Shown here: one piece after another, positions 16,721 through 61,067 of the stretch
Position numbering within the stretch: the stretch's first letter is position 1
How the letters are laid out: the number at the start of each line of letters is the position of its first letter
From: an uncultured Poribacteria bacterium
GTDB taxonomy: Bacteria > Poribacteria > WGA-4E > WGA-3G
Direction of reading: 5' to 3'
DNA length: 64,000 bases
Assembly (NCBI GenBank): GCA_951813565.1
Contig: OX638351.1
Location: forward strand, 1,824,001-1,888,000
Translations under genes and position numbers: made by a program
Notes under the pieces: generated by a model
Told to the model about the DNA's origin: nothing
The model's input: only the letters and a program-made list of their open reading frames with translations
The model's database searches: none

Positions 16721-16763
16721 CAATCTATTTTAGAATTATTCAATTGCTATCTTTTTCTATCAG

Positions 16764-16810
16764 AAATCTCCCGATGACAGACTTTTTAAGTTGTCGTCGG
16801 GAGATTTTTT
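16764..16810 (+). terminator. Rho-independent terminator
   Basis: aaatctcccgatgaca...tgtcgtcgggagattt stem followed by a T run. Confidence 0.75.
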
Positions 16811-16997
16811 GTTGGCAATACTCTTGTGGGAGGGTTTTGTAAGCCCGATTTCAATGTAAATTCAGTTAGTTGCTTGTCTGTTTGTAGTCGTGAAATTCAT
16901 TGTGCTTTTTGGCACTATCTTACATTTCAGAACTAAAAAACTATGGTAGATTTTGGAATTACTTGGACACTCTGCACCAGCGAGGTTAGGAAACCTC

Positions 16998-17256
16998 CAA
17001 ATCAAGAAATCAACGCTACAAATCATGGCGAATGCCATACGCGCATTCGTCTTTAGGCATTTGGCCAAATCAACGCTGAATACGCTTTTGGTATTCAGCC
17101 AAATCAACGCAGCATGCGCCAAATCAAGAAATCAACGGTATGAATCATGGCGAATGCCATACGCGCATTCGTCTTTAGTCATTCACCGGGTCCGAATGCC
17201 TGTTGGCATTCCCCGTATGGCATGCTGCGGGTATGAATGCCATTTAGGCATTCCCC
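16998..17256 (+). repeat. Tandem and nested array of ~35-bp CAAATCAACG-hairpin units inserted in a REP-like hairpin
   Basis: Host gcgaggttaggaaacctc^gcctacc is interrupted; four AAATCAACG leaders and several ATGC..GCAT hairpins. Confidence 0.8.
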
Positions 17257-17504
17257 GCCTACCGAGGGAGGCAAGTGTCTATTTATTTTTATAATTCACC
17301 ATAAATAGTCTTGATAACTCAAAGAAATATAGATTCTCCAACAAAATTATGCTATCATAGAACTAATACCAATTCTATGAATTATTTTTTTTTTGAAAAT
17401 AAATGTCCGAGGCGCAATGAATTGCGCGACTACAAACGGTCTATTTCTTTACGAGGCATTATTTTTTAGAAATGGTATAACAATTAATTAGAGGTGAAAA
17501 TAAA

Positions 17505-21744: not shown

Positions 21745-22188
21745 ACGTGAGTTTGATAATTAGACCTAAATGTAGATGTCCGTTGGGTAGAGCGAAGCGA
21801 AACCTATAGGCGTCAATTTAGTGCCTGATTTTCTTGTGGGAGGGCTTTCTAAGCCCGATATTGTGAGGCTCAAAACGTTATATCGGGGTTGAAAACCCGA
21901 CAAATGCCAAAAAGCGCATTTGGCGTTGATTTGGCAGCATGCCAAACGCGCATGCTGCGTTGATTCGCTCCCACAATAGGATATATCCTAAAATTGACGC
22001 CTATGAGTAGAGCGAAGCGAAACCCAACAATTCAACCGTCTTGGAAGTAATTTAAAGTTGAGTTTCACTCATTTTCCTGTTATTTCGGCATCAAATGGAG
22101 AAAAAATCTCTCTTTTATGTCCGATTTTTTGTTTATTCCGTTCTACCCAACGGACAGTGGTTATTGAATTTTATTATCAAACTCACGT
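21745..22188. mobile_element. Non-autonomous IS982-derived MITE (444 bp) with nested elements
   Basis: Ends ACGTGAGTTTGATAAT / ATTATCAAACTCACGT match the IS982 at 12914; TATATTA duplicated on both sides. Confidence 0.85.
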
Positions 22189-36948: not shown

Positions 36949-37326
36949 GATTGCATCGTACGTTGGGTAGAGCGAAGCGAAACCCCATAAATCAACGCCA
37001 AATGCGCGTGTGGCATTTGTCGGGACTAAATGTGCGACAGTCTCAATCATCACGCATATTGAGAAGGATTCATAAAAACATAGATGTTTTCTTAAGTTTA
37101 CACCCGCAGCATGCCGGACGCGCATGCTGCGTTGATTTATGGGTAGAGCGAAGCGAAACCCAACAAATCCGCGAAATCTGTGAAATCCGCGCAAATCCGC
37201 GCTTCAGACAATCCCCTTGACAACGCCCCCCACACCTGCTAAAATACCCAATGTTGAATTTAACTTAGAACTTGCTGGAATGCGCGCTTAGAAGCGCGCC
37301 TACAGGGATTAGGGACTAATACCTGC

Positions 37327-40300: not shown

Positions 40301-40377
40301 TTGTGGATTTGGTTGGACGAGTTATCAGTGTTAGTTTGCAGACGGTTGAGATTGTGGCTGGTTTGCCAGAATTTTAA
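37327..40377 (+). CDS. Single-chain restriction-modification enzyme (type IIG/IIL-like) with type ISP-like C-terminal specificity domain and no helicase
   Basis: VDG...WEAK nuclease motif; GIVYTP, DPFVGTG, IGNPPY m6A MTase motifs; YRPF, YGILH..YR, SALEWVIDQY. Confidence 0.88.
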   Translation: MPQLNLKPTHKPIKDYYATLQQYSEANITHEGAVSTPFETLLNICAKQIDAIFILQYGMDTEIGKRIIVDGAIKNNGLFFAYWEAKDIDDDLSKAVHQKRQAGYPFNNILFQTPERGILIQNGQTALDLDISDPENLITVLKHLFAYTTPTHEDWHKAVADFRAHVPDLANNLMELIEQRYDKDAGFKKAFTDFYEVCRTAINPNLSRSAVEEMLIQHIITERIFRTVFERSDFTRRNIIAREIENVSDALMRHAVSRDAFLQPLDRFYNAIEKAATLFRDFSQKQHFLNTFYEKFFQGFSEDVADTHGIVYTPQPIVDFMVKSVSHILETEFGRSLSDTGVHIIDPFVGTGNFIVRLMQDIQGTALEEKYRHELHCNEVMLLPYYIASLNIEQEFYQRTQTYLPFEGITLADTFELLEDQQMKLFTQENTERLERQKAADMFVVIGNPPYNAGQVNENDNNKNRKYETMDERIADTYAIDSSATLRNKLYDPYVKAIRWASDRIGDDGVVAFVTNNSFLDAVMFDGMRKHLAQDFDAIYILDLGGNARKGLKISDANVFGIRVGVSINLFVKTNQNPLETARIFYYQTDDKWNKNKKFDFLNENQHTGDIEWQFIKPDSRHTWLTEGLHAEYGTFVPMGHKDTKKLKNRGKSIFSLYSLGVATNRDILAYSFDLGLLQKRVHSFIEIYNTTVDRKKRHDPKTPVESLINTNDPSIKWTRQVKASLKKLELSSYEESHFRKALYRPFCQKYLYFDNFWNEERYQQYRIFPTSEINTENQVICVGGYGRKEFAVLMSTSIPDLNLYGDPHQCFPFYTYSEDGTNRKENITDWALAEFRKHYVDDTISKWNIFHYTYGILHHPEYREKYQANLKRDLPHIPFAPDFWGFANAGAQLADIHVAYESQPKYDGLKQIETPDIPIDWRVEKMKLSKDKTQLVYNDFLTIDGIPTEAFDYRLGKRSALEWVIDQYRVKVDKRSGIVNDPNRADEPRYIVDLVGRVISVSLQTVEIVAGLPEF

Positions 40378-40395
40378 GATATTCGTTCCCCTGCT

Positions 40396-40506
40396 GTAGG
40401 GGCGGGTCTCCGGGGAATGCCAAAAGGCATTCGGACCGTTGATTTGGTGCCCGCCCGTTGCTTGGCACGTCCTATACAGTGGCGGGGCACAGAGACCCCG
40501 CCCTAC
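40396..40506. repeat. GTAG-type REP doublet with a 35-bp insert at 40412-40446; similar doublets at 41597-41704, 57298-57373 and 60417-60745
   Basis: gtaggggcgggtctc..tgcccgccc and inverted ggcggggcacagagaccccgccctac. Confidence 0.8.
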
Positions 40507-40555
40507 GATGTGATTTATGAGATAGGTTGTATAAATTTTGGGTAAGGATTAATTC

Positions 40556-41503
40556 ATGACTGCTGCTGAATTTATTAACAAAAAAAAGAAGGACTGGGAT
40601 GAGTTAGAAGGGTTGTTGAGCTATCCGGGAAATGCGAATGCGGAAAGACTCAACCGGCTCGGCTATCTGTATCGGCGTATCACATCCGATTTAGCCGTAG
40701 CACGTCGCGATTTTCCACAGGACCGATGTGTTACATATTTAAATGAGTTGGCATCCCGTGCACATTCCACTGTCTACCAAGCCTCACCTCTGAAACGTGG
40801 TTCACTGTTGCAGTTTCTTCGTTATGGCTTTCCGCAAGTATTCCGAGAAAATATCTATTTTGTTGGTGCAGCCTTCCTGATGTTCACCATTGCGTTTGTA
40901 GGCACGTATTGGAGCGCCTTGAGAACCCCTGAATTTGCTGAGAAACTTGTTCCTGAAGACACCGTTGAACACATCAAACAGTTGGGGAGAGGTGCATGGA
41001 ATGACACAGCGGCAGAAAATAGAAATCTTTTTGCCTCCTTCGTAATGACAAACAACATTCGGGTTGCTTTTCTTGCATTCGCATGGGGCATCATGTTTAT
41101 GGTAGGTAGTGTTTATATTTTAGTTTACAATGGGATTCTCATCGGGGCTGTTGGGGGATTGTGCCATGTCAATGGCGTTGCGTTAGCACTCTGGTCATTT
41201 GCGTCCCCACACGGTTACATTGAACTGACAACGATTTTTATTGCTGGAGGTGCAGGCATGAAAATGGGGTATTCACTTATCGCGCCATCGGTATACAAGC
41301 GAAAACGTGCTTTGATAGATGCTGCCAGAACCGCTATTCAAATGCTTGGGGGTTGTGTTGTCTTGCTCATCGTGGCAGGGATGATTGAAGGATTTGTATC
41401 GCCATCTGATTTATCAAGCACTATCAAAATCGGTTTTGGTGCTGTAACAGGAGTCGTCCTGTTCACCTACCTTTTTGGCATGAAACCCGCTAAAACCAGC
41501 TAA
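40556..41503 (+). CDS. Stage II sporulation protein M-like (DUF95) membrane protein
   Basis: LYRRITSDLAVAR, YLNELA, TNNIRVAFLAF, PHGYIEL, AGMIEGFVSP. Confidence 0.9.
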   Translation: MTAAEFINKKKKDWDELEGLLSYPGNANAERLNRLGYLYRRITSDLAVARRDFPQDRCVTYLNELASRAHSTVYQASPLKRGSLLQFLRYGFPQVFRENIYFVGAAFLMFTIAFVGTYWSALRTPEFAEKLVPEDTVEHIKQLGRGAWNDTAAENRNLFASFVMTNNIRVAFLAFAWGIMFMVGSVYILVYNGILIGAVGGLCHVNGVALALWSFASPHGYIELTTIFIAGGAGMKMGYSLIAPSVYKRKRALIDAARTAIQMLGGCVVLLIVAGMIEGFVSPSDLSSTIKIGFGAVTGVVLFTYLFGMKPAKTS

Positions 41504-41557
41504 TCTTCTCACTATCTTTCTTGTAGGAGGTTCTGGTAGGTGGTTTCCTAACCGAAC

Positions 41558-41775
41558 CATAGGTGTCAATTTAGTGGGCAAATCCCGTCACACATTGTAG
41601 GGCCAAATCAACGCCAAATGCGCTTTTTGGCATTTGGCGGGGTCTCTGTGCCCCGCCATTGCTGATGTATTCAAACAACGGGCGGGCACAGAGACCCGCC
41701 CCTACAATCGGGTTACGGTGTTGTTTGGGTTAAAATGTGTGAAACCTAAAATAAATCCTTAAATTGACACCTATG
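41558..41775. mobile_element. MITE with CATAGGTGTCAA(T/C)TTA ends; copies at ~21805-22005, 36986-37141, 44646-44900 and 60523-60724
   Basis: cataggtgtcaattta ... taaattgacacctatg. Confidence 0.75.
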
Positions 41776-42129
41776 GTGCGGTTTTCTAAGCGCACCGGAC
41801 TTACTTGGTTGGTAACTACTCATCGGAAAGACATCTTTGTGGGAGCGCTTTGTCCGCGCGATTATCGGCGTTGAAAACGCCTCCCACAAGAGACAAACTT
41901 CGTTATAAACATCCTGCCTCTACCCGACCTGTGAACCATATTTTAGATTTTGCTTTTTATAGGGTAGGTGCGTTTGGTATTCAGTGCCTCCCGTTTGCGT
42001 ATTTTGCACGTAAAGTGCCTTAAGTTGACACCTATATATATGGCGAGGCACAGAGACCCCGCCCTACAACTGGAAAAGAGGCGCAATGAATTGCGCGACT
42101 ACAAACAGCGCAATTCTACCACATCAACC

Positions 42130-43485
42130 TTATATTTTAGACTTCGCCTTTAACTCCAAATATTTATTCACAACTGCCATTGTCAATTGATGTGCAGGCA
42201 CGTCAATCGTGATAACACCGTGACGTCGCAAAACCTCCAAAGTCGCGTGTTTCTCTTGCAATAACCGCTCAGCAATCGCTTTCTGATAGACAGAATTAGA
42301 ATTTGAAGACTGCTGCTCAGCCAATTCAACGATACCAGAATCTGTCAACGTAACGCAAACAACGAGGTGATGCTTGGAGAATTGTGCAACATAAGCGGCT
42401 ATTCCCTCCGCAGAATCTTTGTCAAAAATATCGGTAAAAAGTATGATGAGGGCACGTTTCCGCTGTTTTGAAGCAAGATAGGTGAAAGCCGATTCATAAT
42501 CCGGTTCTACCGGATGAACAGGCAGTGCGTAAATCGTTTCTAACATCGTCAGAAACTGTTTTTTTCCGGGTTTCGGTGCAAGATATTGGTGAACGGTATC
42601 CGCAAAAGCAATTAACCCAACCTTATCGCCTCTCAACGTTGAGACATGGGCAGCCATTAAAGTTGTGTTGATAGCGTAATCCAACTTTAGCATCGCCTTT
42701 TGCGATCTGGATTCTGCGTCAGGTATTTCAGATGATTCCAAAAGGATCGGTGAAGCCATCAGCCTACCGGTGTCTAACATAATCACAACATCTTGACTCC
42801 TTTCCGTCTCAAATTCTCGTACAATTGGTTTGCGGTGGCGTGCTGTAGCTTTCCAATCAACACGACGAAAGTCGTCATCAGGAGAATATTCGCGCAACCT
42901 TTCCATCTCTGTGCCTTCACCAAATTGCCGAGAGTTTTTTAGGCCCATCCGATGAAGCATCCCACGTTTTACTAAGAGTTCATACTGCCGCACCGCTTGT
43001 AGATTCGGATAAACCTTTATCTCTGTCTCTGCTGGCACACGACGTTGACGGATAACAAAACCTAATACGCCCAAACACCGCACATGAATATCACCAAACT
43101 GATAAATACCTCGCCGTAATGGTGTAAGATGATAAGACACCTCCGCGTCATCCATAGGTGAAACACGACAATCATAGGTTACTTTCTCATATAGAAATTC
43201 GTCAGGGAAGTCATCTTTGAGACGCACCCTTAGCGGATGGCGTGAACGGTTGATAATCTGTAACTTCACGACGTTCTCTGCCCCCAACGAAAATTTAGAA
43301 TTCATCACGCGGCTAATTTCTACTTTTTCAAATAAAGGGTTCGTAACATAATCGATGATACTGACGATAAATAACAACGCCAGATACGCGCCACCGATAA
43401 ATAACAGGTTCGGTGAGACAGTATAAAGCACAATCGGAATTGCTGTCGGAAGGAGAAAAATGAGGAAACGTCTGCTTATATGCAT
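42130..43485 (-). CDS. DUF58-domain protein
   Basis: RRGIYQFG, GEGTEMERLREY..DDFRRVDWKATAR, DTGRLM. Confidence 0.93.
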   Translation of the reverse strand: MHISRRFLIFLLPTAIPIVLYTVSPNLLFIGGAYLALLFIVSIIDYVTNPLFEKVEISRVMNSKFSLGAENVVKLQIINRSRHPLRVRLKDDFPDEFLYEKVTYDCRVSPMDDAEVSYHLTPLRRGIYQFGDIHVRCLGVLGFVIRQRRVPAETEIKVYPNLQAVRQYELLVKRGMLHRMGLKNSRQFGEGTEMERLREYSPDDDFRRVDWKATARHRKPIVREFETERSQDVVIMLDTGRLMASPILLESSEIPDAESRSQKAMLKLDYAINTTLMAAHVSTLRGDKVGLIAFADTVHQYLAPKPGKKQFLTMLETIYALPVHPVEPDYESAFTYLASKQRKRALIILFTDIFDKDSAEGIAAYVAQFSKHHLVVCVTLTDSGIVELAEQQSSNSNSVYQKAIAERLLQEKHATLEVLRRHGVITIDVPAHQLTMAVVNKYLELKAKSKI

Positions 43486-44444: not shown

Positions 44445-44936
44445 AATTTATTGCCTTTTTATCCTCCATGCAGTATAGATGTAGGGAATCAACGCCAAAT
44501 ACGCTTTTTGGCATTTGGCGGAGTAGAGCGTAGCAAAATTTGATGGAACGCAATACTATACTCAAGGTAGGCGCGTCTTGTAAACGCGCCTACCGGGATT
44601 GTGGAACGTTAAGTTGATAGTTATCGGTTTCACATTGTTCAATCCATAGGTGTCAACTTAAGAAAAAAGTTGGATTTTCTTGTGGGAGGGAAACCTTGTC
44701 CGCCCGATTTTGCCAGACATAAGCCGTTAATCCAAATCAACGCTGAATACGCCAAATCAAGAAATCAACGGTATGAATCATGGCGAATGCCAAATCAACG
44801 CTGAATGCGCGTGTAGGCATTCAGCCAAATCAACGCAGCATGCCATACGCGCATGCTGCGTTGATTCACTCTCACAAGAAAATCTTCACTAAGTTGACAG
44901 TTGGGTTTCCCAAGCTCTATCCAACCTACGAGATAA

Positions 44937-51884: not shown

Positions 51885-54329
51885 CTACTCACCTTTTTTG
51901 ATAGTCAAGCGATAGTGTTTTCCAATCTTCTTTGTATCAAGAATATCATGCCCATCATTCGTGAGGCTCTTCGGCACGTTCTCAATCGGTTCACCATCAT
52001 CAATGGTAATCTCTAAGAGTTGACCGGCTTGCATCGTTTCCAACCGAACCTTCGCTTGGACGTAGTTGAACGGGCATGCAACACCTTTCAGGTCAAGACT
52101 ATCAGTGATTTCCTCAACAGGTTTCGTTTCCTTAACCACTTTTGGCTTCGGTGCAGGACGCGATCTGCGTGTCTTACGCTTACTTGCTTCCTCTTCCTCC
52201 TGCTTGATACGCATACGGTTATACACGTTATGCGATTCTTCTACGAAGAGAGTAGCTTCTTCTACGCGGCGGTGCGCCAATTCGTGGTCGAAAGTAGAAC
52301 TATCTTCTTCCGTAGCCTTAAACAGATGTGCTCCGAATCCTGCGAAGAAGTTGCCCGGATCAAAGAAATGGGTGCGGAATTCACTGACTGTCGTTGCATC
52401 GTCAATATATTGCAAGCCTACAGTCGTCAAGAGTCCATCCGCGGCTTTGATCATCGCACTAAATGCCTTATCTGCAGATTCTTGGAAGGTTTTATCTTCC
52501 AAGCTCAAACCGGATTCATAGATGAGTCGATCTGCTTCTTCCAACTTCATGGAGACAAGTGCGATTACCTCTCCAGCACACTCACCGACACCGGTTTTGA
52601 GTTGGTAATCTTTCGTGTCACCTGTGTCTATGTAGAATTCCGGTGCTTCCTCGTAGGTAGGAATAGAACGGTACTTGGACAAGATTGCTTTTACCTCCAC
52701 TTTGCCGAGGCGTGCGACATAATCAGTAAAGGTTTCGTCATCTTGCTTTTCATTGACATATTTTCCAGTCAATTCTTCAATGAAAGCCGGAATATATTTG
52801 CCATGAATTTTTCCGGTGGCAAGTCCGTAAGAACTGGCGTTTTCCACCATGTGTCCACCGAGTAGCACAAGGTAGAAGGGAGCGATATGTCCGCCTATTC
52901 TCAGCGAAGAACCGAAGAAGCCAATATTCGCGATGTGGTGTTGTCCGCATGAGTTGGGACATCCGCTAATCTTAATCCGAAAATCTTTGATTTCATCATG
53001 AACACCGGTTTCAATGAAATGGTTTCGCAGATGCGCTGCCAGACCACGCGAAGAAGAAATACCGAGTTTGCAGGAGTCAGTGCCAGGGCAAGCTGTAATA
53101 TCCACTAAGGATTCTGCTCCTGGATCCCCCAGACCGACTGCCTTTAGTTCACGGTAGAGTGCGGGTAAATCAGTCATCGTTACCCAACGCAGGACGATGT
53201 TCTGTTCCACTGTAGCACGGATAGTGTCTTTGACATATTTACGTGAAATATCTGCCAAAGCGCGCGTTTGATCGGCTGTAATATCTCCCAGTGGTAGTGT
53301 AATCGTCACAAAAGCGTATCCGGGCTGACTCTGTAACTGCACATTAGATTGATACCACTCTTCAAATCCTTCAGGTTTCGTGGTGCCGTTGAGTTGTGTC
53401 GGTGGTTTAAGCGGACTTTCATCGTAAGCATCCAGATTGTCAAGATACGCTGTCCATTCAGGATCGTCCCGTAGCGTTTCCCGATCTTCAAGCACCAACT
53501 TGCGAAATTCCTCAATGCCGTGTTTAGCGATGACAAACTTCAGGCGTGCCTTATTCCGATTTCTGCGTTCACCTAAACGGGTGAAGACTCTGCAAATTGA
53601 TTGTGAAATCGGCAGGAGTTCCTCAGCAGGGACAAAATCGTCAAAGATTTTTGCCTGATGCGGGACGGCACCGAGTCCGCCGCCAACGTAGAGTTTGAAG
53701 CCGCGTTTGACTTCACCGTCTACCTCTTTAATCGCAGCAACCGCACCAATGTCGTGCATATTTGCTAAACCGCAGGCATGTTCTTCACATCCAGAAAATG
53801 CAATTTTGAACTTACGACCAAAATTTTCTGCATCCGGGTGTCCTAAAAGGAACGCAGATAACGCTTTAGAATAGGGGGTAACGTCAAATGTCTCATCATG
53901 GCATACACCGCTGAGAGGACATGCTGTAACGTTTCGAACGACATTACCACACGCTTCTTTTGTTGTGATGTCAACGCTTGCGAGGCGACGCATCAACTCA
54001 GAGGTGGTGTTGATGTCTACGTAATGATATTGCACATCTTGACGCGTCGTAATGTGAATGATGTTATCCGAAAATTCTTCGGCAACATCTGCGAGCATTT
54101 CGAGTTGTGCCGCTGTAAGCCCTCCGAAGGGGATCTTGACACGGATCATCTGCGACCGGTCATCGCGCTGTCCGTAAACGCCGCGCCGAAGTCTAAATTC
54201 AGTAAAGGTTGCCTCTTCCACTTGACCGGCTTGGAACCGATCGAGTTGTATCTCATAAATTTCAATTTCGCGGGCAACATCAGCAGGGATTGCCGATGCC
54301 TCGTAAGCTCCCGCGTATTCAATAGCCAT
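51885..54329 (-). CDS. Sirohaem nitrite/sulfite reductase fused to a HEPN-like helical domain and a C-terminal TusA/SirA domain
   Basis: RGVYGQR, TTRQD, RKFKIAFSGC, CPGTDSC, SGCPNSCG; C-terminal LDLKGVACPFNYV...DDGEPIENVP. Confidence 0.9.
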   Translation of the reverse strand: MAIEYAGAYEASAIPADVAREIEIYEIQLDRFQAGQVEEATFTEFRLRRGVYGQRDDRSQMIRVKIPFGGLTAAQLEMLADVAEEFSDNIIHITTRQDVQYHYVDINTTSELMRRLASVDITTKEACGNVVRNVTACPLSGVCHDETFDVTPYSKALSAFLLGHPDAENFGRKFKIAFSGCEEHACGLANMHDIGAVAAIKEVDGEVKRGFKLYVGGGLGAVPHQAKIFDDFVPAEELLPISQSICRVFTRLGERRNRNKARLKFVIAKHGIEEFRKLVLEDRETLRDDPEWTAYLDNLDAYDESPLKPPTQLNGTTKPEGFEEWYQSNVQLQSQPGYAFVTITLPLGDITADQTRALADISRKYVKDTIRATVEQNIVLRWVTMTDLPALYRELKAVGLGDPGAESLVDITACPGTDSCKLGISSSRGLAAHLRNHFIETGVHDEIKDFRIKISGCPNSCGQHHIANIGFFGSSLRIGGHIAPFYLVLLGGHMVENASSYGLATGKIHGKYIPAFIEELTGKYVNEKQDDETFTDYVARLGKVEVKAILSKYRSIPTYEEAPEFYIDTGDTKDYQLKTGVGECAGEVIALVSMKLEEADRLIYESGLSLEDKTFQESADKAFSAMIKAADGLLTTVGLQYIDDATTVSEFRTHFFDPGNFFAGFGAHLFKATEEDSSTFDHELAHRRVEEATLFVEESHNVYNRMRIKQEEEEASKRKTRRSRPAPKPKVVKETKPVEEITDSLDLKGVACPFNYVQAKVRLETMQAGQLLEITIDDGEPIENVPKSLTNDGHDILDTKKIGKHYRLTIKKGE

Positions 54330-54572
54330 TCTATACTCCTTATAACCTCATTTTATACAAATCAACGCCAGGTGCGCCAAATCAACGGTATGAATGCCTG
54401 CAGGCATTCCCCGTATGGCACACTTGTCGGGGCATTAATCAATGTTCGATAACTTTATTTGGATAAAACTTGCCAGACAACAGTGATGCAGAGTTGCGTG
54501 CCGTTAGAAATCTTTTATTAAATAAAGTAGTATACTCTAAAAAGGAATTAAAATCAAGCGCAATTTTTGAAT

Positions 54573-55667
54573 TTAAGTTTTTGAGGCATCTCCCCAATCC
54601 GGAATTTGGAGTAGTTCACCATCTTTAAGGGCTGATTCATGTGCTACGAGTCCCGGTGCACAGTACCGAACTGCTTCCCAAACATTGACGCGTGGTAACC
54701 GCTGCTGGTTGACTGAATCCACAAATTCATGCACCAAATAAGCGTGCGAACCACCGTGCCCACCTAAATTCTCTGCAAGTGCGTCAGGAAGATGTTCATG
54801 CATCTGGGTGGGTTGGACGTTCTCCGTTCTGTGCTTCTCTGCCCACACACTACCTGCAAGACTCTGCTCGTAACTCCCTTCTGTTCCATAGATACCACTG
54901 ACGCGTTCAGATCCGGGGTGTCCAATCCGTCGGAACTCACAGATTTGCATTGTCGAACCGTTGCTCATTGTGAAAAGTCCTACTTCGTTAGAGAACGGAT
55001 TCTTGTGAATGGTATCCTCCCGAAACCAATCGTCGTTTGGATAGATATATCCTTGTGCGGAAACTGATGTTGCGTGCGCCTTCATTACGGAAATAGGAAA
55101 ACAGGTTGAATGGGTTGGATAGTACATCGGGATTCCACCGCTTTTGTCTATGCTCCACTGATCACCCCACCGATTTTTTGCTACATCGTAAAGACCGTGG
55201 CTAATGTCATGAAAATACTCAGCGCGACAGTGAACAAACTCACCAAACGCACCTTCTGCCGCTTTCTGACGGCAAAAGGCTGCCTCTGGACGAAAATAAC
55301 TTGTCTCGCCGTTCATGTAGATCATTCCAGTCTTTTCAACGGTTCTGACCAACTGCTCACATTCATCCAATGACACAGCTGCAGGCACAGCAGTGTAGAC
55401 ATGCTTTCCTGCTTCCATCGCTTGAATAGCCTGTGGCGCGTGCATCCAGTGTTGCGTGATGATGACAAGCGCATCCAAATCCGATTTACAGATTTCGTCA
55501 AGACTTGAATACGTCTCGGTAATCTCAAAGTCTTTTGCCCATTTTGATAAGCGCTCCGAACGTAAATCGCATAAAGCAAGCCGATGGACGTCTGGATGTG
55601 CTTTATAGGATTGGATAAATGAGGGACCGAACATCCCTAAACCAACCATTCCGACACTGATACTCAT
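54573..55667 (-). CDS. Gfo/Idh/MocA oxidoreductase
   Basis: VGLGMFG, GKHVYTAVP, YPTHS, GHGGSH. Confidence 0.9.
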   Translation of the reverse strand: MSISVGMVGLGMFGPSFIQSYKAHPDVHRLALCDLRSERLSKWAKDFEITETYSSLDEICKSDLDALVIITQHWMHAPQAIQAMEAGKHVYTAVPAAVSLDECEQLVRTVEKTGMIYMNGETSYFRPEAAFCRQKAAEGAFGEFVHCRAEYFHDISHGLYDVAKNRWGDQWSIDKSGGIPMYYPTHSTCFPISVMKAHATSVSAQGYIYPNDDWFREDTIHKNPFSNEVGLFTMSNGSTMQICEFRRIGHPGSERVSGIYGTEGSYEQSLAGSVWAEKHRTENVQPTQMHEHLPDALAENLGGHGGSHAYLVHEFVDSVNQQRLPRVNVWEAVRYCAPGLVAHESALKDGELLQIPDWGDASKT

Positions 55668-60395: not shown

Positions 60396-61067
60396 AAATC
60401 CGCACAACTCCTATTGTAGGGGCGGGTCTCCGGGGAATGCCAAAAGGCATTCGGACCGTTGATTTGGTGCCTGCCCGTTGCATGGCACGTCCTGCACAGT
60501 GGCGGGGCACAGGGACCCCGCCCATAGGCATCAATTTAAGCACACAATTACCAGATTGCCTCTTGTGGGAGGGCTTTATAAGCCCGATTTATATGTATTT
60601 ATCGGGGTTGAAAACCCGACAAATGCCAAAAAGCGCATTTGGCGTTGATTTGGCAGCATGCCAAACGCGCATGCTGCGTTGATTCGCTCCCACAAGAGGG
60701 TATATCCTTAAATTGACACCTATGGGGCACAGGGACCCCGCTCTACAGTGGAAAACGCCGCGTAATCATTGCAAATTGAACCTATGTAACCAAATATTTA
60801 CACACCCGTTCTGGCAATAGGGTTGACAATACTCAATATGGTGCATCTCTGACTGCAATAGGATAACTCTTGCTATGGTCGGATTATTGTGTTTTCCGCA
60901 AACTGAAAAGAGTTCTGAATCTGACGATGGACAGGAAAGCGATACGAATCCTTGAACCAAATCGATAATTTCGTGGTAAGCAGACATGAACTAAATATAC
61001 GGTTGATCTTTTACATTCACTAATACCAACCGTATATTCATTGTTACGCTCGGAATTTGTAAAACTG

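What the first reader, a model, noticed from the sequence alone, without database searches (positions are those of the whole stretch)
16998..17256. Family of ~35-bp self-nesting insertion units (CAAATCAACG + bulged hairpin + C) that appear to target C^G
Seen: about 20 AATCAACG/CGTTGATT leaders occur in intergenic DNA (17.0-17.1, 21.9, 37.0-37.1, 40.4, 41.6, 44.5, 44.7-44.9, 54.4, 60.4-60.7 kb), nearly all followed by a 21-25 nt hairpin. Here a REP (aaacctc^gcctac) is split by a 259-bp stack. Units sit head-to-tail (17066-17099, then 17100), and one unit is itself opened at GCGC^GTATGG by 17120-17214. Because a unit ends in C and is followed by the host G, each insertion recreates the target, which would explain tandem growth. 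No target duplication, terminal inverted repeats or ORF. Inference: an ultra-small mobile DNA, far below normal MITE size, possibly moved in trans by a hairpin-recognising HUH (Y1/RAYT-like) enzyme or another recombinase not encoded in this window.
Basis: partly seen in the sequence, partly recalled or inferred. Interest (0 to 1): 0.85.

Follow-up and report, generated by a model that had tools for sequence, protein, structure and literature searches.

The report
Nested pile of tiny hairpin insertions
A 259-base stretch between two genes of a sponge-symbiont bacterium is a Russian-doll pile of 34-36-base hairpin units that behave like some of the smallest mobile DNA known, a kind first described in cyanobacteria in 2008, and the enzyme that moves them is still unknown.

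Summary
AATCAACG occurs 23 times in the window (3.7 expected) and 1270 times in the 5.43-Mb genome. The unit is a 9-nt leader (NN+AATCAAC) plus a 9-bp hairpin closed by G...C, 34-36 nt in all.

The block 16998-17256 splits a RAYT-type REP hairpin (CCTC^GCCTACC). That site has 10 empty and 8 filled copies in the genome.

Mobility is supported:
- Two orthologous filled/empty sites were found among congeners.
- A paralogous copy of this stack differs by exactly one 35-nt unit.
- There is no target duplication.
- Copy number ranges from 29 to 550 across 32 genus members.

- The pile was largely copied as a block with its host MITE, not built on the spot.
- The base after the insert is G in 96-98% of cases, but the base before it is C in only about 59-79%.
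- The organism is Candidatus Poribacteria.

The HUH/RAYT idea gained no support. No Y1 gene is flanked by units, and two near-complete congeners with more than 100 units show no Y1 match.

In kind this resembles the SDR repeats of Nostoc (Elhai 2008; paper not held, recalled). This scan had already noted the same family elsewhere in this genome and in other Poribacteria.

The parts
16940..16997 (+). Left arm of the host MITE-like palindrome. It ends in the REP hairpin GAGGTTAGGAAACCTC (16982-16997). The insertion point lies after C16997.
   Evidence: 77 genome copies of this REP core. It also flanks a RAYT-like gene at genome 5070794-5071330 in inverted orientation.
16998..17015 (+). 18-nt composite leader (CAAATCAAG + AAATCAACG) of the outer element.
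   Evidence: The same leader heads 7 of the 8 filled copies of this REP site.
17016..17065 (+). Hairpin A of the outer element. At 17024-17051 it carries a 28-nt second-family hairpin where the simple form has GCCA.
   Evidence: simple form at genome 724068 and 1449725; the form with the 28-nt piece at 969333, 3280443 and here.
17066..17099 (+). Simple 34-nt type-I unit (leader + CTGAATAC/GTATTCAG hairpin + C).
   Evidence: DNA fold -7.4 kcal/mol, z -4.97. Ten identical copies in the genome.
17100..17119 (+). 5' half of a type-I unit (leader + CAGCATGCGC), split in its loop.
   Evidence: the loop site GCGC^GT..GG is intact 172 times and split by a leader 121 times in the genome.
17120..17214 (+). 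95-nt nested element. It comprises the 18-nt leader (17120-17137), a bulged hairpin with a 28-nt second-family piece (17138-17188; piece at 17146-17173) and a second bulged hairpin (17189-17214).
   Evidence: CAGCATGCGC followed by this leader occurs 33 times. Copies of 17093-17229 at 94-95% identity lie at 3 other loci.
17215..17228 (+). 3' half of the split type-I unit (GTATGGCATGCTGC).
17229..17256 (+). Hairpin B of the outer element (bulged type, ends CCCC).
   Evidence: it directly follows hairpin A in the simple 72-nt form at genome 724068.
17257..17306 (+). Rest of the REP (GCCTACC...) and the right arm of the host MITE-like palindrome.
   Evidence: the arm is shared with empty and filled paralogs.
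17402..17439 (-). Empty copy of another target REP (ATTCATTGC^GCCTCGG on the minus strand).
   Evidence: 38 empty and 87 filled copies in the genome.
21899..21967 (-). Two head-to-tail type-I units next to a GGGTTTTCAACCCC hairpin.
36988..37139 (.). Two units in opposite orientation (36988-37021 on +, about 37105-37139 on -), each beside a GGGTAGAGCGAAGCGAAACCC repeat.
40411..40446 (-). Bulged unit in the loop of a GGGCGGG...CCCGCCC REP. A twin lies at about 60431-60466 (-).
44733..44868 (+). Second nested stack of the window (five leaders, one on the opposite strand).
   Evidence: It is absent from the orthologous spacer of all 5 congeners compared.
54358..54428 (+). Type-I unit with a 35-nt bulged unit (54378-54412) nested in its loop.
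   Evidence: the orthologous site is empty in G012 and holds an un-nested unit in G006.

Best explanation
The block is a nested pile of members of a genus-specific family of non-coding insertion modules in a Candidatus Poribacteria genome.

The unit. Each module is 34-36 nt: a single-stranded 9-nt leader (two variable bases plus AATCAAC) followed by a hairpin. The hairpin's 9-bp stem always closes with G...C. The inner stem bases vary in a compensatory way, and the loop is conserved (GCGYNTG or GCTTTTTG). There are two shapes. Type I has a plain 8+1-bp stem. The bulged type has GTATGAATGCC...GGCATTCCCC.

Shown:
- Modules sit precisely, without target duplication, directly 5' of a G.
- Type I sits mostly before GGG at the foot of other hairpin repeats, or behind another unit.
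- The bulged type sits mostly in the GCGC^GTATGG loop of type-I units or in loops of REPs.
- Filled and empty versions of the same site exist among paralogs and among orthologous sites of sister species.
- Here the pile is lodged in the C^G step at the 3' foot of a RAYT-associated REP that forms the core of a roughly 110-bp MITE-like palindrome.
- The MITE plus most of the pile was copied as a block. The paralog at 3.28 Mb has the same architecture, and after the copy one copy gained or lost exactly one 35-nt unit.

Inferred:
- The modules move as single-stranded hairpins. Their targets are loops and feet of other hairpins, that is, places exposed when DNA is single-stranded.
- A trans-acting protein recognises them by leader, loop and shape and not by stem sequence.
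- The enzyme is not identified.
For: Excess and structure:
- Motif excess.
- Compensatory stem pairs: pair 2 is CG/AT/TA 76/27/24, pair 3 is AT/GC 78/58, pair 4 is AT/CG 113/27 and pair 7 is GC/AT 104/26 among 142 distinct units. Overall 95% are paired against 80% in shuffles. The units were selected for at most one mismatch, so only the double changes count as evidence.
- The leader G pairs with the terminal C.

Precise boundaries and no target duplication:
- Exact 24-nt empty junctions exist elsewhere in the genome for up to 93 of 418 units under one boundary definition.
- Filled/empty counts at four target families are 8/10, 87/38, 83/51 and 28/21. Type-I loops are split 121 times and intact 172 times.
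- Flank logo: G at +1 in 262/274 and 151/154.

Orthologous polymorphism:
- At the spacer 54329-54573, G012 is empty, G006 has one unit, and G000 has that unit plus a nested 35-nt unit.
- G006 and G012 differ by a 32-nt gap that is a unit, within about 90% identical flanks.

Paralog and distribution:
- The paralog has the same stack plus one extra 35-nt unit at GCGC^GTATGG.
- CAAATCAACG occurs 29-550 times in 32 of 32 genus members, against 10-40 in the other genera of the phylum sample of 121.
- The orthologous spacer of this locus is 130-614 bp in 11 congeners, and none carries the MITE or the stack.
Against: - No enzyme was found.
- The direction of each difference (gain or precise loss) is not polarised by an outgroup.
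- Much of the copy number is explained by hitch-hiking inside larger repeats. This stack is an example.
- No strain-level polymorphism could be read, because the public contigs break at the repeats.
- GC skew is too flat to test a replication-strand bias.
- The link between the first two leader bases and the base before the insert is not explained by a simple cut-and-paste of a fixed element. CA follows C in 205/209 and TG follows G in 92/104, each with several hairpin types.
Confidence: 0.72

Rival explanations
1. The units are non-autonomous substrates of a resident Y1 HUH enzyme (a RAYT or an IS200/IS605 TnpA). The enzyme would cut single-stranded DNA beside the hairpin and paste the unit 5' of a G.
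For: - The genome has 10 PF01797 matches. Three of them are RAYT-like genes flanked by their own GTAG-type REPs.
- The units insert into exactly those REPs, including the REP of the RAYT at 5.07 Mb and the REP just upstream of the RAYT at 242 kb.
- There is no target duplication, the orientation is fixed and recognition is hairpin-dependent.
- RAYT-type matches and unit counts correlate weakly across 32 congeners: rho 0.37, p 0.04, not corrected for kinship.
- Nested junctions are few in the three better-assembled genomes without a Y1 match: 4, 5 and 0, against 121 and 63 in G000 and G051.
Against: - No Y1 gene is flanked by units as its own REP, and each has a different cognate repeat.
- The ends of the resident IS200/IS605 are unlike the unit.
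- PF01797 gave no match in G047 (one contig, 92% complete, 160 leaders), G001 (97% complete, 125 leaders), G010 and G130.
- G009 has 21 Y1 matches but the fewest units, 29.
- Total Y1 count against units gives rho 0.12.
- The RAYT type is as common in the sister genus, which lacks the units: 28 of 36 against 26 of 37.
Confidence: 0.3
2. The units do not move themselves. They are building blocks of a BIME-like mosaic that spreads by transposition of the larger MITEs that carry them, and by gene conversion or unequal recombination between repeat clusters.
For: - This stack and its MITE flanks recur at 3.28 Mb, and part of it recurs at 969 kb.
- Composite blocks such as 17093-17229 recur at 94-95% identity.
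- Most units lie inside other repeat families.
Against: - The same units occur in at least nine unrelated contexts with exact empty counterparts.
- One orthologous filled/empty pair lies in a spacer whose flanks align at about 90% on both sides.
- The two copies of this stack differ by exactly one unit at the family's usual loop site.
- Successive units in arrays carry different hairpins, which is not what slippage gives.
Confidence: 0.18
3. The units spread through an RNA intermediate and reverse transcription. This is what Elhai and co-authors suggested for the cyanobacterial SDRs (recalled from that paper's abstract).
For: - The stems covary while the leader and loop stay fixed, as expected for a folded transcript.
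- The genome encodes two reverse transcriptases.
Against: - Neither reverse-transcriptase gene has a unit array nearby.
- Covariation fits a DNA hairpin equally well.
- There are no poly-A or truncated 5' ends; both boundaries are exact.
- No Rfam family matches.
Confidence: 0.08

Closest known systems
Small dispersed repeats SDR1-8 of Nostoc punctiforme and relatives (Elhai et al. 2008, Genome Res 18:1484; paper not held; I saw only citing passages, and otherwise rely on recall of the abstract)
   Same: - Very short non-coding repeats.
- They form hairpins supported by compensatory changes.
- They sit precisely inside other repeats and inside copies of themselves.
- No enzyme is known.
- A citing passage confirms precise insertion of SDR5 at one position of the HIP1 octamer.
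   Different: - Size is 34-36 nt here against 21-27 nt (recalled).
- The host is Candidatus Poribacteria and not heterocystous cyanobacteria.
- The unit has a fixed 7-nt leader plus two variable bases.
- The targets are C/G^G steps at feet and loops of REP hairpins.
- Sequence relatedness to SDR1-8 could not be tested.
REP / BIME / REPIN elements with RAYT (TnpA-REP) Y1 transposases (passages of PMC3116915 and PMC3733652)
   Same: - A 20-40-nt hairpin with a short conserved unpaired tag at one foot.
- High copy number, intergenic location, clustering.
- Suspected single-strand HUH mobilisation.
- True GTAG-tagged REPs with RAYT genes are present in this genome and serve as the units' targets.
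   Different: - The tag is AATCAAC, not GTAG or CGTC.
- No RAYT gene is flanked by the units.
- Units are head-to-tail or nested and are not inverted doublets.
- Clean filled/empty sites and self-nesting are not features reported for REPs in the passages I read.
IS200/IS605 family and its miniature derivatives (features recalled, not read here)
   Same: - No target duplication and no terminal inverted repeats.
- Insertion in one orientation next to a short specific sequence.
- Dependence on hairpins.
- A short tail between hairpin and cut site.
   Different: - One hairpin in place of distinct left-end and right-end hairpins.
- Ten to fifty times smaller.
- The ends of the resident IS200/IS605 copies bear no likeness to the unit.

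Membership tests
SDR (Elhai 2008) | Unit length 21-27 nt (recalled from the abstract) | tested here: not met
   Units are 34 nt (261), 35 nt (116 + 116) or 36 nt (37).
SDR (Elhai 2008) | Confined to a coherent group of cyanobacteria (recalled) | tested here: not met
   Most of the 80 listed loci with the pattern are Candidatus Poribacteria MAGs and none is cyanobacterial. The units are enriched only in genus g1.
SDR (Elhai 2008) | Nested insertion into copies of itself and into other repeats | tested here: met
SDR (Elhai 2008) | Sequence likeness to SDR1-8 consensus sequences | not testable with these tools
   The paper and its sequences are not held. A full-text search for the leader found only unrelated primers.
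REP/RAYT | Conserved GTAG or CGTC tetranucleotide at one foot of the hairpin (PMC3733652 abstract passage) | tested here: not met
   The tag is NNAATCAAC. GTAG-tagged REPs exist in the genome but are a different family.
REP/RAYT | A RAYT gene flanked by copies of the repeat | tested here: not met
   Ten PF01797 matches were inspected. Each RAYT-like gene has other flanking repeats. The single unit upstream of the 242-kb gene is an insertion into that gene's own REP.
REP/RAYT | Imperfect palindrome of 20-40 nt, intergenic, high copy number | tested here: met
IS200/IS605-derived miniature element | Different subterminal hairpins at the left and right ends, matching those of a full-length IS in the genome (recalled) | tested here: not met
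   The unit has a single hairpin. The ends of four aligned IS copies are unlike it.
IS200/IS605-derived miniature element | No target duplication; insertion beside a short specific sequence in one orientation | tested here: met
MITE | Terminal inverted repeats and target-site duplication | tested here: not met
   The unit ends (CAAATC... and ...GC) are not inverted repeats. Filled and empty sites differ by the unit alone. The roughly 110-bp host element does have inverted arms.

The most novel reading that the evidence does not exclude
The units are moved by something other than a Y1 HUH transposase. This could be an unrecognised hairpin-specific enzyme, or the host's own replication and repair machinery acting on extruded hairpins. 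Under this reading the leader and loop form a minimal self-contained insertion signal of about 35 nt, and the first two leader bases are set at the moment of insertion by the base on the left of the target (CA after C, TG after G).
Probability: 0.25. Interest if true: 0.85.

Novelty: new variant of a known kind. Interest (0 to 1): 0.5.

Why it matters
If these 34-36-nt units really transpose, they are close to the lower size limit for mobile DNA. They pose a clean question: which protein recognises a 9-nt leader plus a hairpin of free stem sequence and splices it, scar-free, next to a G in another hairpin?

The family is abundant, with hundreds of copies and about half of several target families filled. 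It varies nearly twenty-fold among species of one genus. It also builds long intergenic piles that break short-read assemblies, so it shapes genome structure and MAG quality in an uncultured sponge-symbiont phylum.

A scar-free, hairpin-guided inserter could also be of use as a tool.

The phenomenon in kind has been in print since 2008, and this scan had already met the same family. This particular locus therefore adds detail and not a new class.

Tried and rejected
- Cyanobacterial origin. My first guess was that these were literally the Nostoc SDRs.
- Read support and strain polymorphism. The contigs of four runs from four studies (X1, X4, X8, X9) stop at about 16831-16985 and resume at 17410. 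None bridges the stack. The joints listed come from paralogous repeats. This gives no verdict on assembly or polymorphism.
- Replication-strand bias. Cumulative GC skew is nearly flat and gives no usable origin or terminus. Orientation is 294 forward to 256 reverse overall.
- A gene flanked by units. Among 27 ORFs with units within 300 bp on both sides, the 15 of 170 aa or more read as ordinary housekeeping proteins by eye (DnaK-like, GroEL-like, a sigma factor, a methyltransferase and others). None is transposase-like. I did not scan them against a library.
- Other recombinases. There is no IS110 DEDD match. The Y2 search found nothing, but its control was silent, so it says nothing.
- Reverse transcriptases. 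There are two, with no unit arrays nearby.
- Rfam. No family reaches gathering score in the window, and only chance-level hits lie outside the stack.
- Integron attC likeness. The reverse complement GTTGATT is one base off the recalled GTTRRRY core. But the unit boundary lies two bases beyond the motif and not at G^TT, so I dropped it without a search.
- Pseudoknot between the leader CCAAA and the loop TTTGG. It fits only some subtypes and was not pursued.
- Automatic collapse. Removing 536 simple units exposed only 29 newly complete ones (control 9). This is because most nested inserts are composite: an 18-nt leader, two hairpins and second-family pieces. 705 of 1270 leaders were left unparsed, about 166 of which are expected by chance.
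- Literature. Two searches found no description of these units in Poribacteria. The searches for SDR4/SDR5 and for the leader sequence gave nothing relevant.

Full report
**What is there**

The window is G000:C1:1824001-1888000 of a single-contig 5.43-Mb genome with 43% G+C. The octamer AATCAACG occurs 23 times in the window, where 3.7 are expected and no shuffle reached 23. Two hits (14387, 35339) lie in long ORFs and have no hairpin. By my reading, 15 are followed by an intact hairpin and 6 by a hairpin interrupted by another unit.

Genome-wide there are 1270 leaders. CAAATCAACG occurs 550 times against 13 for the reversed control. A perfect stem of 7 bp or more follows 418 of 1270 leaders, against 40 of 1270 random positions.

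**Anatomy of the unit**

Folding as DNA shows that the G of the leader pairs with the terminal C. The unit is therefore a 9-nt single-stranded leader (two variable bases plus AATCAAC) and a hairpin with a 9-bp stem.

Among 431 type-I units found with at most one stem mismatch:
- 382 end in C.
- The loop is GCTTTTTG, GCGTTTG, GCGTATG or a close variant.
- The main stems are CCAAATGC, CAGCATGC, CTGAATGC and CTGAATAC.

Four of the eight inner pairs show two or three different Watson-Crick pairs among 142 distinct units. Because the units were chosen for pairing, only these double changes count as evidence.

A second shape has a bulged stem (GTATGAATGCC...GGCATTCCCC), with 154 simple copies. Lengths are 34-36 nt.

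**The locus**

The flanks are a REP hairpin, GAGGTTAGGAAACCTC followed by GCCTACC. It sits at the centre of a roughly 110-bp palindromic, MITE-like element.

Of 77 genome copies of the core:
- 54 belong to a CGCCAGC subfamily.
- 10 have the exact empty site.
- 8 are filled with a leader directly after the C.

The 8 filled copies form a series:
- One bulged unit with a 10-nt leader (4.45 Mb).
- A 72-nt element made of an 18-nt composite leader and two bulged hairpins (724 kb).
- That same element with a 28-nt second-family hairpin standing where hairpin A has GCCA.
- The form in the window.

In the window, two type-I units (17066-17099 and 17100-17228) lie between hairpin A and hairpin B. The second is opened at GCGC^GTATGG by a 95-nt copy of the composite element (17120-17214).

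**Built here or copied?**

A paralog at 3.28 Mb has the same architecture and the same MITE arms, so the MITE and most of the pile were copied as a block.

The two copies differ by one 35-nt bulged unit. It lies in reverse orientation at the family's usual loop site, inside the 28-nt piece of hairpin A. They also differ by a replacement of about 24 nt in the inner element. So there has been a change of exactly one unit since the duplication.

**Is it mobile?**

Four lines of evidence bear on this.

1. Exact empty sites. For up to 93 of 418 units under one boundary definition, the 12+12-nt junction without the unit exists elsewhere in the genome. Filled and empty counts at four target families are 8/10, 87/38, 83/51 and 28/21. 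Type-I loops are split by a leader 121 times and intact 172 times.
2. No target duplication at any of these sites.
3. Orthologous sites. In the spacer 54329-54573, G012 has nothing, G006 has one unit, and this genome has that unit with a 35-nt unit nested in its loop. In the ortholog of the spacer 41503-42130, G006 and G012 align at about 90% on both sides of a 32-nt gap that is a unit.
4. Distribution. CAAATCAACG occurs 29-550 times in all 32 members of the genus sampled, and this genome has the most. It occurs 10-40 times in the other genera, where the control is 2-17.

The spacer that holds the stack is 130-614 bp in 11 congeners with conserved flanking genes (a DUF4159 protein and a xylose-isomerase-like TIM-barrel protein). 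None has the MITE or the stack.

Two things remain unshown. I have no outgroup to say gain or loss for any single site. Strain-level data could not be read, because the public contigs break at the repeats.

**Target**

The base after the insert is G in 262 of 274 type-I units and in 151 of 154 bulged units. Type I mostly precedes GGG (224 of 274). The bulged type mostly precedes GTATGGC or GTGTGGC (loops of type I) or GGGACCC/GGAGACC (loops of a REP).

The base before the insert is C in 161 and G in 80 of 274 type-I units. This goes with the leader: CA follows C in 205 of 209 units, and TG follows G in 92 of 104. Each leader type carries several hairpin types and occurs in several left contexts. 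I have no explanation for this link.

The idea that a unit recreates its target at its 3' end fits the head-to-tail arrays.

**Enzyme**

The genome has 10 PF01797 matches:
- Five copies of an IS200/IS605.
- One group-II Y1 gene plus a pseudogene.
- Three RAYT-like genes, one of them with a stop codon.

The IS ends are unlike the unit. Each of the other genes is flanked by its own, different repeat. The unit just upstream of the 242-kb RAYT gene is an insertion into that gene's REP.

Across the genus, PF01797 matched in 36 of 40 genomes. It did not match in G047 (one contig, 160 leaders), G001 (97% complete, 125 leaders), G010 or G130. Unit count against Y1 matches gives rho 0.12. Against RAYT-type matches it gives rho 0.37, p 0.04, uncorrected for kinship. 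The RAYT type is equally common in the sister genus, which lacks the units.

Nested junctions are few in the three better-assembled genomes without a Y1 match (4, 5 and 0). They number 121 here and 63 in G051. This is the only hint in favour of a Y1 link.

Other candidates gave nothing:
- No IS110 match; the Y2 search was uninformative.
- Two reverse transcriptases lie away from any unit array.
- None of the 15 longer ORFs (170 aa or more) bracketed by units looks transposase-like.
- No Rfam family matches.

**Comparison with what is known**

In kind this is what Elhai et al. (2008) called small dispersed repeats. I could not read that paper. I saw it only through citing passages. These call the SDRs some 20 bp long and possibly mobile. 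They report the precise insertion of SDR5 inside HIP1. They also list the SDRs beside REPINs as short palindromic repeats of unknown origin. The size range, the self-nesting of SDR1 and SDR4, and the RNA suggestion are from my recall of the abstract.

The present family differs in size, leader, host phylum and targets. It also resembles tagged REPs, but it lacks their tag and has no RAYT of its own.

I found no paper in the held library that describes such units in Poribacteria. This scan itself had already noted the same family at other places of this genome, and similar families in other Poribacteria, always with the enzyme unknown.

**Verdict**

The mobile-element reading is supported, with corrections. 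The HUH proposal remains an untested guess with mixed indirect evidence. The finding is a new variant of a known kind and not a new class. This locus is one more, well-resolved, example.

Noticed in passing
genome G000:C1:5070794-5071330 (outside the window); REP core in window 16982-16997: A RAYT-like Y1 gene (178 aa frame) is flanked on both sides by inverted copies of the GGCGAGGTTAGGAAACCTCGCC hairpin. The same REP is the host of the stack in the window. Two further RAYT-like genes (242 kb; 3.55 Mb, with an in-frame TAG) are flanked by GTAG-tagged GGAGCGACCTCC-type REPs, one with a downstream tandem array of them.
   Followed up: partly
window 17024-17051 and 17146-17173: A second micro-family of 28 nt (CATGGC + GAATGC hairpin + GTC). 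It carries the same loop as the main units but in reverse, has no AATCAAC leader, and stands where the simple host hairpin has GCCA. It therefore looks like a replacement of four bases and not a clean insertion.
   Followed up: partly
window 16998-17015, 17120-17137, 44753-44770: An 18-nt composite leader (CAAATCAAG + AAATCAACG). It looks like a partial duplication of the leader and heads a roughly 72-nt two-hairpin element that behaves as one insertion unit.
   Followed up: partly
genome-wide: The first two bases of the leader track the base left of the insertion (CA after C in 205/209, TG after G in 92/104). They do not track the hairpin type. No mechanism considered here explains this.
   Followed up: partly
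L144:3857-4989 (G012, ortholog of window spacer 40377-40556): In G012 this spacer holds a RAYT-like gene between GTAGGTTGGGT...ACCCAAC REPs, followed by two AATCAAC-type units beside a GTCGCGACCAGGAGGTCGCTCCTAC REP. In the window the spacer is 178 bp with one bulged unit in a different REP.
   Followed up: no
genome G000:C1, 54 copies of the CGCCAGC subfamily: About 35 nearly identical copies of a roughly 130-bp element (aattcacaattacctttacattggc + REP + cgccagcgcatgcgtgtgggaattgctg...ttttactataa). It looks like a recently active MITE built around the same REP core. None of these copies carries a unit.
   Followed up: no
window 16744-16818: A conserved terminator-like hairpin (atctcccgatgac...gtcgtcgggagattttt) follows the DUF4159 gene in this genome and in all the congeners aligned. 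It marks the old end of the spacer, before the repeats were added.
   Followed up: no
G009: The congener with the fewest units (29 leaders) has 21 PF01797 matches. Many are split into two pieces by a TAG at the same place, which suggests a burst of an IS200/IS605 copy with a stop or recoding site.
   Followed up: no
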